From a bacterium (GTDB taxonomy: Bacteria > Patescibacteriota > Patescibacteriia > UBA10025): a stretch of DNA of 64,000 bases. Positions within the stretch are counted from its first letter, which is position 1, and each line of letters begins with the position of its first letter. The DNA lies in assembly GCA_021815445.1 (NCBI GenBank), contig JAKAGM010000002.1, positions 95,511-159,510 on the forward strand, written 5' to 3'. This document shows, piece by piece, positions 1,604 through 19,679 of this stretch. Under the pieces are notes generated by a model, which did not search any database, was not told where the DNA came from, and worked only from the letters and a program-made list of their open reading frames with translations. The position numbers and the translations under genes were made by a program.

Positions 1604-1942
1604 GTTCTGAGACTGTTTACAGGAATGTAAAGGTAATGTGTTTGTGAAGAGCGTATCTTCTGTGAATACGGTTAAATACTCACGCTCTATTAGTACTCCT
1701 CCGCTTCACTCCTTACGGAGCTTCCACGTAGAGCCTATCAACCCAATAATCTCTTGGGGAGCTTACTGAAATGTAATCTTGAAGGAGGTTTCACGCTTAT
1801 ATGCTTTCAGCGTTTATCCTTGCCGAACGTCGCTACCGAGCAATGCCCCTGGTGGGACAACTCGTCGACGAGAGGTTCGTTCTTCCCGGTCCTCTCGTAC
1901 TAGGGAAGAGTCTTCTCACATTTCTACGCCCGCGACAGATAG

Positions 1943-1994
<52 letters not shown>

Positions 1995-2007
1995 TGGCGA
2001 ACAGCCA

Positions 2008-2038
<31 letters not shown>

Positions 2039-2225
2039 CGATGGGCCGACATCGAGGTGCCAAACCCCCTCGTCGATGTGGACTCTTGGAGGGGATCAGC
2101 CTGTTATCCCCGGAGTAGCTTTTATCCGATGAGCTTCCGCCGTCCTATTTCGTGGACATACTACCTGCTATCCCTTTTGCAAGGAACAACAAGTAATACG
2201 CCGCGTACGGTCGGATCACTAAGTT

Positions 2226-2256
<31 letters not shown>

Positions 2257-2852
2257 TGCAGTAAAGCTGGCTTGTGGCTTTGCCCTATCTCTCGCATTTC
2301 CATCGCGAGATAGCCAACCTTTGTAAACGCCTCCGTTACATTTTGGGAGGCGACCGCCCCAGTCAAACTACCCACCAGACACTGTCCGTTCCCCGGATTC
2401 ACGGGTGAACGTTAGTCATAAAACCATCTCAGCGTGGTATTCCATATTGCGACTCCACCCCATCCAAAGACAGGGTTTCATAGTCTCCCACGTATGCTCG
2501 GCAGAGAAAACTCTATGACAATGCCAAGTTGTAGTAAAGCTTCACGGGGTCTTTTCGTCTAGCCGCGGGTAACGAGCATCTTCACTCGTCTTGCAATTTC
2601 GCCGAGTCCCTCGTTGAGAGAGTTTTCAAGTCGTTATGCCATTCGTGCAGGTCGTAACTTACACGACAAGGAATTTCGCTACCTTAGGACGGTTATAGTT
2701 ACCGCCGGCGTTCGTCAGCGCTTCAGCTCGGAGCTTGCACCCCTCACCTTAACGTTCTGACACTGGCCAGGCATCAGCCCCTATACATCACCTTTCGGTT
2801 TAGCAGGGACCTGTGTTTTTGATAAACAGTCGCTTGAAATCGTTTGCTGTGT

Positions 2853-3156
2853 CCAGCACCACTTTCAGTTGCCAAGCGAATGTTGTATACGTCGATACAA
2901 TTCTTGCTTAGCTCTGCCATGTTGTTTCAATCTACGTTCCCGAAGTATGGCGTCTTGTTTATTGCCATACTGTTCGCAATAGACAAGCTGCCACGCGCCT
3001 GATTGACGGTTCGTTGACGTTTGATTGCCGCTGTTATGTTCCTGCAATCGTCGGTCAAGATTGTGTGTCAGGCCTATATATAACTCCTTACTTACTGAGT
3101 GTCTAATGACGTAGATGTTCCACATAGTATTTGCTCCTTAAACTGAAAGTGGTGCT
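2853..3156 (-). mobile_element. Insertion within 23S (helix 63 variable region): 18-bp inverted repeat stem enclosing a GIY-YIG ORF
   Basis: ccagcaccactttcagtt (2853-2870) and aactgaaagtggtgctgg (3139-3156) are perfect inverted repeats. Flanking sequence aligns to E. coli 23S about 1690 and about 1770, so the insert replaces a variable helix. Confidence 0.55.
2865..3125 (-). CDS. stand-alone GIY-YIG nuclease domain protein (86 aa, YhbQ/Slx1-URI-like) encoded inside 23S insertion
   Basis: N-terminus YVIRHSVSKELYIGLTHNLDRRLQEHNSG matches the GIY-(x10)-YIG...R...E...N signature. The ORF exactly fills the loop of the 18-bp stem. Confidence 0.6.
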   Translation of the reverse strand: MWNIYVIRHSVSKELYIGLTHNLDRRLQEHNSGNQTSTNRQSGAWQLVYCEQYGNKQDAILRERRLKQHGRAKQELYRRIQHSLGN

Positions 3157-4385
3157 GGAGGGCCATGTACCGAAGGTACGGCCGTTGTTTTGCCGAGTTC
3201 CTAAACGAGGGTTCTCTCGTACACCTTAGGCTTCTCGCCTCACCCACCTGTGTCGGTTTCCGGTACGGGTACTACACTGATAATGTCTTCAATCTTTTTC
3301 TAGGCACCACATTTTCGCAAATTGGTATTGCCTTGCGACGCCACCTTTTGCCATCCCCAGCTTTCGCTGAAAACAGCAACGCGCATAACCAGAACACGCC
3401 CGCAATAGCTTGATGCGTCAGAAAGAAGACTCAATGCAGTAGTGCTGGAATATTAACCAGCTGTCCATCGGCTACGCATGTTAAGCCTCACCTTAGGACC
3501 GACTAACCCTGGGTCGATTTGCGTTGCCCAGGAAACCTTGGGTTTTCGGTGGACGGGGTTCTCACCCGTCTTTTTGCTACTTATGCCAACATTCTCACTT
3601 CGAAGCGCTCCACCGCCTCTTGTCGAGACGACTTCATGGCACTTCGAACGCTCCTCTACCACTATCTCGATTCCGAAGAACCGAGATAATTCCCACGATC
3701 GGTACGAAACTTAGCCCCGGTACATTTTTGGTGCACAGAAGCTTGACTAGTGAGCTGTTACGCTTTCTTTAAAGGATGGCTGCTTCTAAGCCAACCTCCT
3801 AGTTGTCAGGACTTCTACACTGCCTTTTACACTTAGTTTCGATTTAGGGACCTTACGTTGGGATCTGGGCTGTTTCCCTTTTGACCGGTGAAGCTTTGAC
3901 CCCACGGTCTGACTCCCCAGATAGTCTGCATCGGCATTCGGAGTTTGGTTTAGTAAAGTAGGCTTACGCCATCTTCACCAATTCAGTGCTCTACCACCGA
4001 TGCGTAGTTACTGGAGGCTAGCCCTCAAGCTATTTCGAGGAGAACCAGCTATCGCCGAGCTCGATTGGAATTTCTCCGCTATCCACGGGTCATCCCCGCG
4101 TGTTGTACGGCGCGTGGGTTCGGACCTCCCCCGCCTTTTACGGCGGGTTCATCCTGCCCATGGATAGGTCGCACGGCTTCGGGTCTTGTCGACAGAATCA
4201 AGGCGCGCTATTAACGCTCGCTTTCACTGTGGCTATTCCCTTCTCGGGCTTCACCAAACTCTGTCGAACAAACTCGTTGGCTCATTCTTCAATAGGCACG
4301 CCGTCACCCGGCTTGCGCCGAGCTCCGACTCCTTGTAAGTATATGGTTTCAGATACTTTTCATCCCCCTCACCGGGGTGCTTTTT

Positions 4386-4416
<31 letters not shown>

Positions 4417-5317
4417 ATCACAAAACGTATTTAGCCTTGGGACGATAGTCGTCCCTGCTTCCCATAAAATTTCACGTGTTTCATGGTACTCGAGAGAAAT
4501 CATCGTAGCTCCCAATCCGTTTCGCTTACGGGACTGTCACCCTCTGTGGTAGAGCTTTCCAGCTCCTTCTGCTACGGACTGAAGAGTGCCTTCACCACCC
4601 CAGCTTGCGCCGGGACGGATAAGGAACTCCCTCTAGGTCTGCTACCTCGAATCTACAGGATTCGAACATAATTTCCTCATCAACGCCCTCTTTCATTGGG
4701 CCTGCACCCATATCCTGCATTGCTGCAGGAAGAGAAGAGAGTTTTGGCTGTTCCCCTTTCGCTCGCCACTACTTAGGGAATGGGCCAAATCACACATTGA
4801 TACCCTGTCTTTCGACAGGAGATCAAACGTGCAATCTGACATTTGTTTCTTTTCCTCTGGCTACTAAGATGTTTCAATTCACCAGGTAGTCTTCACTGTG
4901 CCTATGAATTCAGCACAGGATGGCTGGCTCTTCGCCAGTCGGGTTTCCCCATTCGGACATCTCCGGATCAAAGGTTGGTTGCCACCTCCCCGAAGCTTAT
5001 CGCAGGCTCCTACGTCCTTCATCGTCGTTTTGTGTCAAGGCATCCACCATATACCCTTAAACGAGTATTTAACCGTAATCGCAAATGATACGGTTCTTAC
5101 TATTTGATGCTCATCACTTATGTTACCTCTACTACTACATATTCAGTTGTTAACGTTCATTCCTTGAGCAGAAGTAGAAAGATGAAACTGTTTTCATGCT
5201 TCTATTTCGGTTCTAGGGTTGGAAAGGGCACTCCTTTACCTACAGGACCCTTCGACTTCGCCCCGTGTGACTGTGGGGCTCCGCTCAGGGCAACTCGCTG
5301 ACGCTCGTTGAGTATGA

Positions 5318-19265: not shown

Positions 19266-19266
19266 A

Positions 19267-19338
19267 TGCCCTCGACAGGAATCGAACCTGTATCCCAGGC
19301 TTCGGAGGCCTGTGCACTATCCTTTGTGCTACGAGGAC
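19267..19338 (-). tRNA. tRNA-Arg (anticodon CCG)
   Basis: Manual cloverleaf fold: acceptor GTCCTCG/CGAGGGC, D stem GCAC/GTGC, anticodon stem CAGGC/GCCTG with loop CTCCGAA, T arm ACAGG-TTCGATT-CCTGT; no encoded CCA. Confidence 0.75.
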
Positions 19339-19595
19339 ATGCTAGATGGGTTGTCTACATACTGTCTAATAAATTCCTTCTTTACGGAGGAACTGCGCTT
19401 AATCTGATACTCTCGCCATCGTGCCTTTTCCCGTGTTGGATACTCTTCGAATCCAATCAGTTTCCATGGAACTTTCCGTTGTGTTGTCTGGACGTGCCCT
19501 TCATTGTGCCGGACTAACCTTGCCCGAATATTTCCCGTCTGCCCAATGTAGAAAGTGTTATCTTTCTGACTCTGAAGTAGGTATACGTAGTACAT
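19329..19595 (-). CDS. stand-alone GIY-YIG nuclease domain protein (88 aa) overlapping the 5' end of tRNA-Arg
   Basis: YYVYLLQSQKDNTFYIGQTGNIRARLVRHNEG = GIY-YIG signature; stop codon TAG lies inside the tRNA acceptor/D region (GTCCTCGTAGCAC). Confidence 0.65.
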   Translation of the reverse strand: MYYVYLLQSQKDNTFYIGQTGNIRARLVRHNEGHVQTTQRKVPWKLIGFEEYPTREKARWREYQIKRSSSVKKEFIRQYVDNPSSMSS

Positions 19596-19603
19596 AAACT
19601 TTC

Positions 19604-19679
19604 GGCTTCGGCCTCCGGCCCAGAGGGCCGTACGGCCCGGAGGGAGGCCTGTGCACTATCCTTTGTGCTACGAGGACAG
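19604..19679 (-). repeat. Partial duplicate of tRNA-Arg 5' half (positions 1 to about 43) interrupted by a 33-nt GC-rich palindromic insert in the anticodon loop
   Basis: 35-nt exact repeat of 19305-19339 (ggaggcctgtgcactatcctttgtgctacgaggaca) plus ggcttc beyond a 33-nt insert containing the perfect palindrome GGGCCGTACGGCCC. Confidence 0.6.

What the first reader, a model, noticed from the sequence alone, without database searches (positions are those of the whole stretch)
2853..3156. GIY-YIG ORF sitting in the loop of an 18-bp stem inserted into 23S rRNA (helix-63 region)
Seen in sequence: the 23S gene (1670-5083, minus) is about 500 nt longer than E. coli. A 304-nt insert is bounded by perfect inverted repeats ccagcaccactttcagtt / aactgaaagtggtgctgg. 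The 86-aa ORF starts MWNIYVIRHSVSKELYIGLTHNLDRRLQEHNSG and fills the loop. Established knowledge: this is the GIY-YIG catalytic module. rRNA introns with homing endonucleases are documented in reduced-genome bacteria. Helix 63 is a variable expansion site, not a classic group I site. Inference: the non-coding remainder (about 45 nt) is far too short for a group I ribozyme core. This looks instead like an IVS/expansion segment that has captured a minimal endonuclease, or a novel tiny mobile element that uses an rRNA hairpin as its vehicle. A second GIY-YIG ORF of the same type is fused to a tRNA gene (next finding), so the association with stable-RNA genes is recurrent.
Basis: partly seen in the sequence, partly recalled or inferred. 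Interest (0 to 1): 0.65.

Follow-up and report, generated by a model that had tools for sequence, protein, structure and literature searches.

The report
Hairpin-bounded nuclease gene inside 23S rRNA
A 306-base selfish element, consisting of a tiny nuclease gene enclosed in its own 19-base-pair hairpin, takes the place of a surface helix of this bacterium's 23S ribosomal RNA gene; relatives with the same hairpin ends sit in other rRNA helices, in RNase P RNA and in pilin leader peptides, all places where an insertion can be tolerated or trimmed off.

Summary
Window 2853-3158 (minus strand) is a 306-nt insert at helix 63 of the 23S gene. It is closed by a perfect 19-bp inverted repeat and holds an intact 86-aa GIY-YIG ORF. 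No intron signal was found.

The interpretation needs one correction: the stem is not native helix 63. I collected about 90 relatives from genomes and metagenomes. The same hairpin ends (CCAGC.../...GCTGG) enclose the ORF at six or more sites in 23S and 16S, inside RNase P RNA, and at non-RNA sites. A genome whose H63 is empty has an ordinary 9-bp hairpin there, so the hairpin travels with the ORF.

- **Stem:** it covaries strongly, and its mismatches in RNA genes are sense-strand G.U.
- **Orientation:** all 72 rRNA copies are co-oriented with the rRNA.
- **ORF:** it is under purifying selection (dN/dS about 0.15). It is a minimal UPF0213/Slx1-type nuclease domain, not an I-TevI-type homing enzyme.

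Best reading: an IVS-like mobile hairpin element, probably excised by RNase III or tolerated as an expansion segment, and spread by its nuclease.

GIY-YIG ORFs in non-intron rRNA insertions of CPR bacteria are already published (30 cases). The portable hairpin and the RNase P and prepilin-leader sites appear undescribed.

The parts
2853..3158 (-). Whole element (306 nt; 308 nt if the extra T/A pair at 2852/3159 is counted). It occupies the position of 23S helix 63.
   Evidence: Inverted repeat; cmscan insertion of 283 nt in the hairpin loop; E. coli coordinates 1704-1770; RNA fold closed by the 19-bp stem, z = -5.07.
3141..3159 (-). 5' arm of the hairpin in the RNA sense, UCCAGCACCACUUUCAGUU. 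The outer CCAGC is the family-wide conserved end.
   Evidence: It is 19/19 identical in the closest relative L091, although synonymous sites there have diverged 56%.
3134..3139 (-). Shine-Dalgarno-like AAGGAG, 8 nt upstream of the ATG, in the 15-nt leader between the arm and the ORF.
   Evidence: Read directly from the sequence. Only 7 of 73 distinct relatives have such a motif.
2865..3125 (-). 86-aa GIY-YIG nuclease ORF (stop codon included). A minimal catalytic domain of UPF0213/Slx1 type.
   Evidence: ORF list; Pfam E=1.5e-17; PDB sequence hits 1zg2, 1ywl and SLX1; AlphaFold2 pLDDT 88.5; Foldseek top hits UPF0213, Slx1, I-TevI catalytic domain; dN/dS about 0.15 among relatives.
2852..2870 (-). 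3' arm of the hairpin, AACUGAAAGUGGUGCUGGA. It contains the last two sense codons and the TGA stop of the ORF.
   Evidence: In most relatives the stop codon lies 6-20 nt from the outer end of the right arm.
1669..5073 (-). Host gene, 23S rRNA. The element is co-oriented with it and has no promoter-like site of its own.
   Evidence: Rfam RF02541, 2438 bits; no sigma-70-like site in 2700-3400; all 72 rRNA-embedded relatives share the rRNA's orientation.

Best explanation
This is a small selfish element of the intervening-sequence (IVS) type. It consists of an element-borne terminal inverted repeat and a minimal 86-aa GIY-YIG nuclease gene, and it has taken the place of helix 63 of the 23S rRNA gene. 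How it most likely works: (1) It has no promoter of its own and is transcribed as part of the pre-23S rRNA, always in the sense orientation. (2) In the transcript the two arms zip into a 19-bp perfect stem. This brings the flanking rRNA ends together exactly where H63 would be, so the ribosome still folds. (3) The long perfect duplex is then most likely cut by RNase III, as in classical 23S IVSs, which removes the loop and leaves a fragmented but functional 23S. Alternatively it stays as a surface expansion; H63 is the root of eukaryotic ES27L. (4) The ORF is translated from this abundant RNA. (5) The nuclease, a structure-specific Slx1/UPF0213-like domain with no DNA-binding domain, makes a DNA break or nick. 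That break promotes copying of the whole hairpin unit into unoccupied rRNA genes of other cells, where conserved rRNA flanks provide the homology, and rarely into new hairpin tips or other tolerated sites. The conserved CCAGC.../...GCTGG ends are the likely recognition feature. Shown here: the anatomy, the element-borne nature of the stem, multi-site distribution, orientation bias, stem covariation with a sense-strand G.U bias, purifying selection on the ORF, occasional ORF decay, and the fold and catalytic residues. Inferred only: RNase III excision, translation, and the DNA substrate and mobility mechanism of the nuclease.
For: Element-borne stem: an unbiased inverted-repeat search around about 89 homologous ORFs finds 13-26 bp perfect repeats. 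They begin (C)CCAGC and end GCTGG(G) at 23S H63 (54 loci), 23S about 228 (4), 23S 533-560 (4), 23S about 1870 (2), 16S 1115-1156 (1), 16S 69-243 (7), and at loci without rRNA. Two of the latter lie inside RNase P RNA (L053 E=3e-21, L046 E=7e-11). An empty H63 in L035/L071 is a 9-bp GCAA hairpin. Stem function: across 54 distinct arm pairs, 97.6% of cells are paired and 14 of 18 pairs show changes on both sides. No shuffle out of 500 reached the observed value for percentage paired, double-change cells, pair types or covariation score (4 of 500 did for the count of pairs with a double change), and slid controls give 32-50% paired. Mismatches in rRNA/RNase P copies are 13 G.U, 0 A.C and 2 other, which points to selection on the sense strand. 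Sequence-level constraint: the window and L091 share 19/19 nt in both arms, while the leader is unrelated, ORF pS is 0.56 and rRNA flanks are 79-89% identical. Orientation: 72 of 72 copies are co-oriented with the rRNA across at least 6 sites, and there is no promoter-like site. Functional ORF: median dN/dS is 0.15, and Y5, Y16, G18, R26, H30 and E63 are invariant in 62 sequences. The fold is confirmed. Selfish life cycle: about 10 of 89 ORFs are truncated or frameshifted. ORF-less hairpins with the same ends occur at H25, the H45 region and other sites in the same contigs. Host and element divergence correlate poorly, r=0.31. L012 (H63) and L003 (site 228) share 77% aa identity and an identical TIR. 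Precedent: the Coxiella IVS has a 28-bp terminal stem with an ORF in the loop and is excised by RNase III (PMC4990558). CPR genomes retain rnc (PMC12641178).
Against: There are no RNA data, so excision versus retention is undecided. No consistent target-site duplication flanks the element. No closely related filled/empty allele pair was found, and the closest cross-site pair is only about 75% identical in DNA, so no recent movement is documented. Only 7 of 73 relatives have a Shine-Dalgarno-like motif, so the route to translation is unclear for most of them. In Coxiella the IVS ORF appears not to be translated. A hydrolytic GIY-YIG domain cannot by itself perform strand transfer. At 86 aa it has no DNA-binding domain, so its specificity is unexplained. 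The ORF-less hairpins are extended stem-loops rather than obvious deletion remnants; the conserved stem base could therefore be a host processing signal rather than a nuclease site. No relatives were found in IMG/VR viral contigs. The host lineage of the window could not be assigned.
Confidence: 0.55

Rival explanations
1. Palindrome homing. The CCAGC hairpin is a pre-existing ORF-less IVS or MITE-like hairpin family. The GIY-YIG gene is a separate rider that homes into the centre of such hairpins. A dimer of the minimal nuclease would recognise the two juxtaposed half-sites of an empty, short-loop hairpin, as GIY-YIG restriction enzymes recognise palindromes. Insertion of the ORF separates the half-sites by 270 bp and so protects the occupied copy.
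For: ORF-less hairpins with the same ends occur in the same contigs. They include a perfect 30-bp palindrome (L071 4728-4757) and short-loop forms (L035, L003, L025, L082, L023, L026, L046). In L005 the ORF is flanked by two complete hairpins instead of sitting inside one. The arms are conserved in sequence, not only in pairing. TIR class tracks ORF clade.
Against: The loops of the ORF-less hairpins are unrelated to each other and 0-93 nt long, so there is no uniform empty site. Arms of 13-20 bp are short for homology-directed copying. This model does not explain how the hairpins themselves reach new sites.
Confidence: 0.2
2. Retained expansion segment. The hairpin and ORF stay in the mature 23S as a surface expansion of H63. 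The element is now essentially vertically inherited, and the protein has a host-beneficial or neutral role.
For: H63 and the other occupied helices are known variable or expansion sites (established knowledge; ES27L grows from H63). 54 of 89 relatives sit at H63, and 60 of 71 nearest-neighbour ORFs share the same site, which is compatible with long residence.
Against: The same hairpin occurs at many other sites, including non-RNA ones. ORF decay is seen in about 10% of copies. Element and host divergence correlate weakly. A translated mRNA embedded in an assembled ribosome is awkward, and a 19-bp perfect duplex is a standard RNase III substrate.
Confidence: 0.15
3. RNA-level self-removal signal. 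The conserved CCAGC/GCUGG stem base is a signal for a host RNA-processing enzyme, or for the GIY-YIG protein acting on RNA, that excises whatever lies in the hairpin. The nuclease would serve RNA processing rather than DNA mobility.
For: The stem base is invariant across hosts and is shared by ORF-less hairpins. There is a sense-strand G.U bias. Relatives sit in a prepilin leader that is removed by a host peptidase, which suggests a general strategy of sitting where the host trims.
Against: To my knowledge, characterised GIY-YIG enzymes are DNA nucleases. The arms are kept at non-RNA sites, where no RNA processing is expected. RNase III needs no such sequence.
Confidence: 0.07
4. Degenerate group I (or II) intron carrying a classical GIY-YIG homing endonuclease of the I-TevI type.
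For: rRNA introns with homing endonucleases are common in CPR bacteria. Relatives' contigs contain them elsewhere in 23S: LAGLIDADG in L001 and Intron_gpI in L007.
Against: No intron model matches the insert at E<=10 or the region at the gathering threshold. Only about 45 nt are non-coding. TIGR01453 scores 20 bits against a cutoff of 56. There is no DNA-binding domain. The published survey found no GIY-YIG ORF in any intron-like insertion.
Confidence: 0.02

Closest known systems
GIY-YIG-encoding, non-intron insertion sequences in rRNA genes of CPR/Patescibacteria (Brown et al. 2015, as cited by Tsurumaki et al. 2024, J Bacteriol, PMC11270868)
   Same: An insertion of at least 100 bp relative to E. 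coli inside an rRNA gene, carrying a Pfam GIY-YIG ORF with no group I or II intron signature. That survey lists 30 such ORFs (15 in 16S, 15 in 23S), 'sparsely at several sites', mostly at tops or bases of stem-loops.
   Different: A term search of that paper found no occurrence of 'inverted repeat', 'hairpin', 'helix 63' or 'H63'. [quoted passage not shown] The shared CCAGC/GCTGG hairpin, the H63 hot spot, the RNase P and prepilin-leader sites and the ORF-less hairpins do not appear in the passages I read. It reports that 64 of the 66 Saccharibacteria rRNA insertions are short (<=250 bp) and lack introns or homing-endonuclease genes, whereas four of my genome hits are Saccharibacteria MAGs.
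Classical 23S rRNA intervening sequences (IVS) of Salmonella, Leptospira and Coxiella, some with an S23p ORF (Pfam 23S_rRNA_IVP)
   Same: An insert at the tip of a variable 23S helix, bounded by complementary termini that form a long stem, with an ORF in the loop and no ribozyme. The Coxiella IVS has a 28-bp stem and is excised by RNase III without religation (PMC4990558). ORF-less relatives of the present hairpin occupy the classical IVS sites at H25 and the H45 region.
   Different: The cargo is a nuclease rather than the four-helix S23p. The ORF is under purifying selection, whereas Coxiella's is decaying. The site in this window is H63. The same hairpin also occurs in 16S, in RNase P RNA and outside RNA genes. 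Excision is untested here.
UPF0213 (YhbQ / BH0048 / EF2693) stand-alone GIY-YIG proteins and the Slx1 structure-specific nuclease domain
   Same: These are the best sequence and fold matches: 1zg2 E=6.9e-9, 1ywl, and SLX1 6seh; Foldseek returns 1zg2, 4xm5, 6seh and 7cq4. The size is the same, about 90 aa, with a bare catalytic domain.
   Different: To my knowledge UPF0213 genes are ordinary free-standing chromosomal genes of unknown role, and Slx1 needs Slx4 and a RING/PHD domain. Neither is known to sit inside a hairpin in an RNA gene.
Intron-encoded and free-standing GIY-YIG homing endonucleases (I-TevI, T4 Seg proteins)
   Same: The same catalytic superfamily, residence in or next to stable-RNA or conserved genes, and a gain-decay life cycle.
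   Different: No linker or DNA-binding domain. TIGR01453 scores below its cutoff. There is no intron. Many unrelated insertion sites share one conserved element end, which is the opposite of one enzyme with one target site.
Hairpin- or TIR-bounded minimal mobile elements (MITEs; REP elements with RAYT; IS200/IS605)
   Same: Very small size, terminal or subterminal hairpins, co-occurrence of ORF-bearing and ORF-less copies with the same ends, and (in L005) a gene flanked by two hairpins, as in REP-RAYT.
   Different: The enzyme is a hydrolytic GIY-YIG nuclease, not an HUH, DDE, serine or tyrosine transposase. No target-site duplication is seen. Copy number per genome is unknown.

Membership tests
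GIY-YIG nuclease superfamily | Match to Pfam PF01541 above the gathering score | tested here: met
   64.1 bits against a cutoff of 22.6, E=1.5e-17, residues 1-72.
GIY-YIG nuclease superfamily | Catalytic motif residues conserved (GIY Tyr, YIG Tyr/Gly, Arg, His, metal-binding Glu) | tested here: met
   Y5, Y16, G18, R26, H30 and E63 are invariant in 62 relatives, and N31 is at least 90% conserved. The assignment of these residues to catalytic roles rests on established knowledge of the fold.
GIY-YIG nuclease superfamily | Three-stranded sheet flanked by helices (GIY-YIG fold) | tested here: met
   AlphaFold2 pLDDT 88.5, with elements E2-9, E15-20, H23-31, E45-53, H56-67 and H71-79. Foldseek hits to 1zg2, Slx1 and I-TevI have probability 0.96-1.0.
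I-TevI-type GIY-YIG homing endonuclease | Catalytic domain joined to a C-terminal DNA-binding domain; NCBIfam TIGR01453 above cutoff | tested here: not met
   The protein is 86 aa in total. TIGR01453 scores 20.3 bits against a cutoff of 56, matching residues 4-37 only.
I-TevI-type GIY-YIG homing endonuclease | Cleaves the insert-free allele near the insertion site | not testable with these tools
   Requires a biochemical assay.
Group I / group II intron | Ribozyme core detectable by covariance model and enough non-coding RNA to build it | tested here: not met
   No Intron_gpI or group II hit at the gathering threshold or at E<=10 within the insert. Only about 45 nt are non-coding.
23S rRNA intervening sequence (IVS) | Insert at the tip of a variable 23S helix, absent from other bacteria | tested here: met
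   H63, E. coli 1704-1770. An empty H63 is seen in L035/L071.
23S rRNA intervening sequence (IVS) | Complementary termini that form a long stem enclosing the insert | tested here: met
   19-bp perfect stem. The minimum-free-energy fold is closed by it, z = -5.07. Covariation is seen across 54 arm pairs.
23S rRNA intervening sequence (IVS) | Excised from pre-23S by RNase III without religation, giving fragmented 23S | not testable with these tools
   No RNA data are available. The only indirect support is that CPR genomes retain rnc (PMC12641178).
GIY-YIG-bearing rRNA insertion of CPR bacteria (Tsurumaki et al. 2024) | Insertion of at least 100 bp in an rRNA gene relative to E. coli, with a Pfam GIY-YIG ORF and no intron model | tested here: met
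.
GIY-YIG-bearing rRNA insertion of CPR bacteria (Tsurumaki et al. 2024) | Host belongs to CPR/Patescibacteria | tested here: inconclusive
   The window's proteins are not on record. Its 23S is at most 80% identical to any fetched locus, and 72-75% identical to labelled Saccharibacteria and Giovannonibacteria MAGs. Relatives also occur in rRNA genes that look non-CPR (L025, L078) and in Spirochaetota-labelled MAGs.
TIR DNA transposon / insertion sequence | Terminal inverted repeats | tested here: met
TIR DNA transposon / insertion sequence | Target-site duplication flanking the TIRs | tested here: not met
   No consistent direct repeat lies outside the arms in the window or in most loci. One possible 6-bp repeat, ATTTAC, was seen in L079 only.
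TIR DNA transposon / insertion sequence | Encodes a transposase (DDE, HUH, serine or tyrosine) | tested here: not met
   The only ORF is a GIY-YIG hydrolase.

The most novel reading that the evidence does not exclude
The window's insert belongs to an uncharacterised class of minimal (about 300 bp) mobile elements. In this reading an 86-aa Slx1-like GIY-YIG nuclease works on its own conserved hairpin ends (CCAGC.../...GCTGG). The element persists by lodging only where the host removes or tolerates it after expression. Such places are tips of rRNA and RNase P RNA helices, where the hairpin restores the fold and is probably cut out by RNase III, and the leader peptide of type IV prepilins, where prepilin peptidase would cut the nuclease off the pilin. 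This would be a DNA element that achieves the phenotypic silence of introns and inteins without any self-splicing activity, by borrowing host RNA and protein processing.
Probability: 0.35. Interest if true: 0.85.

Novelty: new variant of a known kind. Interest (0 to 1): 0.62.

Why it matters
The origin and spread of rRNA intervening sequences have been unexplained since 1990; 'remnants of transposition' is one old guess (PMC4990558). Here an IVS-type hairpin carries an intact nuclease gene under purifying selection, and the same hairpin ends recur at many sites. This makes the mobility of such inserts directly testable: one small protein, one defined hairpin, and defined empty sites. It also bears on three other questions. 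The first is why CPR rRNA genes are so insertion-rich. The second is rRNA-based surveys of these organisms, since inserts break primers and models; RNase P RNA fell below Rfam's threshold because of the insert. The third is how small an autonomous mobile element can be. The prepilin-leader relatives suggest a general strategy of hiding in parts of a gene product that the host trims away.

Tried and rejected
- **Exact-sequence look-ups.** The window ORF and a neighbouring 354-aa protein are not on record, so the host could not be identified.
- **First homologue search.** The single-sequence search found only 2 proteins because of the word index. Profile searches were needed.
- **Whole-gene MAFFT of 23S sequences.** This was unusable because of the many large inserts. 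I replaced it with anchor motifs and BLAST against E. coli rRNA.
- **Intron hypothesis.** Rejected.
- **Internal promoter.** None found.
- **Other copies in the window.** There are no other copies of the hairpin ends in the 64-kb window.
- **Phage carriage.** No relatives in IMG/VR.
- **Target-site duplications.** None consistent.
- **Recent transposition between sites.** The best cross-site pair is about 75% identical in DNA, so no recent event is documented.
- **The other ~200 extra nt of the window's 23S (4450-4846).** These are ordinary expansion hairpins without the CCAGC ends.
- **Literature searches.** Searches for a described hairpin/GIY-YIG element, for UPF0213/YhbQ function, and for GIY-YIG with pilin or RNase P returned nothing relevant beyond Tsurumaki et al. 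2024. The library lacks most subscription journals, so absence there is not proof of novelty.
Full report
**1. What is in the window**

Rfam finds a bacterial 23S rRNA gene at 1669-5073 on the minus strand, followed by 5S at 1487-1603. No 16S gene is present anywhere in the 64 kb.

Within 2700-3300 there is a single inverted repeat: 19 nt, perfect, with arms at 2852-2870 and 3141-3159. Between the arms lie three things:
- a 15-nt leader with AAGGAG 8 nt upstream of an ATG;
- an 86-aa ORF at 2865-3125, whose last two codons and stop codon lie inside the 3' arm;
- nothing else.

The ORF matches Pfam GIY-YIG at E=1.5e-17.

The covariance-model alignment places a 283-nt insertion in the terminal loop of the hairpin that follows the CUUCGG hairpin. 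BLAST against E. coli rrlH brackets the insert between positions 1704 and 1770, which is helix 63.

The insert folds with the 19-bp stem closing it (-104 kcal/mol, z = -5.07). No Rfam family matches the insert even at E<=10, and there is no sigma-70-like promoter in 2700-3400.

**2. Relatives show the hairpin belongs to the element, not to the rRNA**

I collected about 90 loci:
- two close homologues (64-65% aa), both inside 23S genes at the same place;
- 7 loci from a scan of one genome per species: four Saccharibacteria MAGs, one Giovannonibacteria MAG and two Spirochaetota/Leptospirales-labelled MAGs;
- 80 loci from a metagenome scan;
- the closest relative of all (71% aa, L091), found later.

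I mapped each ORF against E. coli rRNA and searched for inverted repeats around it without any sequence assumption. Nearly every ORF is enclosed by a 13-26 bp perfect repeat that starts (C)CCAGC and ends GCTGG(G).

| Site (E. coli coordinates) | Loci |
|---|---|
| 23S H63 | 54 |
| 23S about 228-232 | 4 |
| 23S 533-560 (helix 25, a classical IVS site) | 4 |
| 23S about 1866-1875 | 2 |
| 16S 1115-1156 | 1 |
| 16S between 69 and 243 | 7 |
| No rRNA nearby | 17 |

(Counts.)

Two of the 17 loci without rRNA lie inside RNase P RNA. That RNA only became detectable with relaxed thresholds because the insert splits it (L053 E=3e-21, L046 E=7e-11).

In L035/L071 the element sits at site 228. Their H63 is a plain 9-bp hairpin with a GCAA loop, unrelated in sequence to the element's arms.

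So the element brings its own stem and substitutes for H63. It was not dropped into the loop of a pre-existing 18-bp rRNA stem.

**3. The stem is functional, and at least partly at the RNA (sense-strand) level**

- **Covariation.** Across 54 distinct arm pairs, 97.6% of positions pair and 14 of 18 pairs show compensatory double changes (241 cells). None of 500 shuffles reaches the observed value on four of the five measures; for the count of pairs with a double change, 4 of 500 do. Sliding the partner by 1-3 columns drops pairing to 32-50%. One caveat: I anchored the arms on CC[ACT]GC, so the outer five pairs are invariant by construction in that alignment. Their conservation rests on the unbiased search.
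- **Mismatch type.** In copies inside rRNA or RNase P RNA the mismatches are 13 G.U, 0 A.C and 2 other. At non-RNA sites there is no such bias: 4, 3 and 9.
- **Orientation.** All 72 rRNA-embedded copies have the orientation of the rRNA, across at least six independent sites.
- **Sequence-level conservation.** The window and L091 share both 19-nt arms exactly. Meanwhile the leader is unrelated, synonymous sites of the ORF differ at 56%, and the adjacent rRNA is only 79-89% identical. Something reads the sequence of the arms, not just their complementarity.

**4. The ORF is a working gene for a minimal nuclease**

- **Selection.** Pairwise dN/dS among relatives is 0.05-0.21, median 0.15.
- **Conserved residues.** In 62 aligned relatives Y5, Y16, G18, T20, R26, H30, E63 and K67 are invariant.
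- **Sequence relatives in the PDB.** The closest are the stand-alone UPF0213 proteins BH0048 (E=6.9e-9) and EF2693, then SLX1.
- **Fold.** An AlphaFold2 model (pLDDT 88.5) has the GIY-YIG fold. Its best structural matches are UPF0213, Slx1 and the I-TevI catalytic domain.
- **No homing-endonuclease features.** There is no DNA-binding domain, and the group-I-intron endonuclease model TIGR01453 scores far below its cutoff.

This is therefore a bare catalytic module of the Slx1/YhbQ kind, not an I-TevI-type homing endonuclease.

**5. Signs of a selfish life cycle**

- About 10 of 89 ORFs are frameshifted, truncated or internally deleted, for example L007, L009, L058-60, L069 and L086.
- ORF-less hairpins with the same ends occur in the same contigs. 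They are found at helix 25 (L025, L082), in the helix 45 region (L023, L026), elsewhere in 23S (L026), inside another insertion at 1931 (L035, L071, including a perfect 30-bp palindrome), in RNase P RNA (L046) and upstream of 23S (L003). In L005 two of them flank the ORF.
- Element and host-flank divergence correlate weakly, r=0.31. The window's nearest 23S relatives carry a different arm class.
- Nearest-neighbour ORFs usually share a site (60 of 71), but there are cross-site pairs. L012 (H63) and L003 (site 228) share 77% aa identity with identical arms.
- One 16S gene (L044) holds three different intact GIY-YIG ORFs.
- The subfamily is large: 2276 clusters at 90% identity with E<=1e-5 to the profile, and 3594 clusters at 50% identity with E<=1e-3.

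**6. Mechanism**

What is shown is anatomy, distribution and selection. What follows is inference.

The closest working model is the classical 23S IVS: a terminal stem, an ORF in the loop, excision by RNase III without religation, and a fragmented but functional 23S. This has been demonstrated for Coxiella, Salmonella and Leptospira (PMC4990558). CPR genomes retain RNase III (PMC12641178).

A 19-bp perfect duplex in a highly expressed precursor is a natural RNase III substrate. I therefore favour excision over retention. H63 does tolerate large expansions in eukaryotes, so retention is not excluded.

The nuclease presumably drives spread, but how it does so is open. A hydrolase cannot transpose DNA by itself, and there is no target-site duplication. 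The many unrelated target sites argue against site-specific homing; Tsurumaki et al. reached the same view.

Two variants fit the conserved ends:
- cleavage at the hairpin or cruciform, followed by host repair;
- cleavage of short-loop palindromes ('palindrome homing').

Weak points:
- most relatives lack a Shine-Dalgarno motif (7 of 73);
- no recent movement is documented;
- the ORF-less hairpins do not look like simple deletion products.

**7. Comparison with what is known, and novelty**

GIY-YIG ORFs in rRNA insertions of CPR bacteria are on record. Tsurumaki et al. 2024 cite Brown et al. 2015 for their first identification. Their own survey lists 30 such ORFs, none in intron-like insertions, scattered over several sites. 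The window's insert is one more case of that phenomenon.

The following appear in neither that paper nor any paper the searches returned:
- the portable, sequence-conserved hairpin;
- the covariation and sense-strand bias of the stem;
- the H63 hot spot;
- occupancy of RNase P RNA;
- the ORF-less hairpin copies;
- the Slx1/UPF0213 affinity of the protein.

The searchable library omits most subscription journals, so this is not proof of novelty. I rate the finding a new variant of a known kind: an IVS-type insert whose cargo is a nuclease and whose hairpin also moves outside rRNA.

**8. A side result that strengthens the general picture**

Among the more distant relatives, many proteins are 200-514 aa long. 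They carry the GIY-YIG domain at residues 1-80, followed by ...SGAGFTLIE and a hydrophobic helix, which is the type IV prepilin cleavage/methylation motif. Pfam confirms GIY-YIG plus N_methyl.

In L079 and L074 the CCAGC/GCTGG arms are present, and the right arm itself encodes the Gly-Ala-Gly before the cleavage site. The nuclease thus sits in the leader that prepilin peptidase removes.

Together with the RNA-gene sites, this suggests elements that survive where host processing trims them away. That is the basis of the novel case, which I put at about one in three.

**9. Limits**

- The host lineage is unassigned.
- The metagenome sample is biased toward sequences most similar to the query. 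The 72-of-89 share in rRNA describes this subfamily, not all small GIY-YIG genes.
- Helix names other than H63, H25 and H45 are approximate, inferred from E. coli coordinates.
- There is no experimental evidence on RNA processing, translation or nuclease activity.

Noticed in passing
window 19266-19676 (minus strand): The second GIY-YIG ORF (19329-19595, 88 aa, 32% identical to the 23S one) is flanked by a 35-nt direct repeat that is the 5' half of tRNA-Arg(CCG). A partial tRNA copy at about 19642-19676 carries a GC-rich hairpin (19612-19643) just before the anticodon. It is followed by the ORF and then the intact tRNA (19266-19339), into which the ORF's last codons run. This looks like an insertion into the tRNA gene that restored a 5' half. 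It has no CCAGC arms.
   Followed up: partly
L079 2472-3184; L074 282-1046; proteins P0141, P0144, P0149, P0151, P0155, P0157, P0160, P0168, P0169, P0171, P0183, P0186, P0216: Relatives of the ORF are fused in frame to type IV prepilins or pseudopilins. The order is GIY-YIG domain, then ...SGAG|FTLIE (Pfam N_methyl; GspH in L074). The right hairpin arm encodes the Gly-Ala-Gly before the peptidase cleavage site. About 35 of the top 150 cluster representatives have this length and layout. No paper linking GIY-YIG with pilins was found.
   Followed up: partly
L053 2261-2871 (element 2469-2773); L046 2476-2772 and 2346-2394: The same kind of element sits inside RNase P RNA. The insert pushes the RNA below Rfam's gathering score (76 and 45 bits against 100). 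L046 also has an ORF-less hairpin with the same ends next to the conserved GAGGAAAGUCC region.
   Followed up: partly
L023 1834-1934; L026 1731-1833 and 2239-2340; L025 1093-1161; L082 918-987; L035 4733-4762; L071 4728-4757; L003 3423-3446; L005 3909-3973 and 4254-4315: ORF-less hairpins with the same CCAGC.../...GCTGG stems and loops of 0-93 nt occur at classical IVS sites (helix 25, helix 45 region) and elsewhere. In L005 two of them flank the ORF instead of enclosing it. Whether they are non-autonomous copies, decayed elements or empty targets is unresolved.
   Followed up: partly
L044 1190-2392: A single 16S rRNA gene carries three separate intact GIY-YIG ORFs of different subfamilies (36%, 50% and 32% identical to the window ORF). 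They lie after E. coli position 66, before position 243, and between positions 452 and 480.
   Followed up: no
L006 3850-4400: In a Leptospirales-labelled MAG the element interrupts what reads like the zinc-finger N-terminus of an IS91-family transposase (…FSCKSRLL|element). This is an element nested in another mobile element. The domain assignment is from memory and was not tested.
   Followed up: no
window 4450-4846 (minus strand); whole window: The remaining roughly 200 extra nt of the 23S lie between E. coli positions 223 and 411. They are ordinary expansion hairpins without the CCAGC ends. The 23S-5S pair has no 16S gene within the 59 kb upstream, so the rRNA genes are unlinked.
   Followed up: partly
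L001 2473-3099; L007 1797-2078 and 137-220; L003 5955-6232: Relatives' 23S genes carry further inserts: a LAGLIDADG_2 ORF (L001), a group I intron and a tRNA-like hit inside the 23S region (L007), and a 165-nt AT-rich ORF-less hairpin insert at H63 with different arms, CCGAGCGCATCAC... (L003).
   Followed up: no
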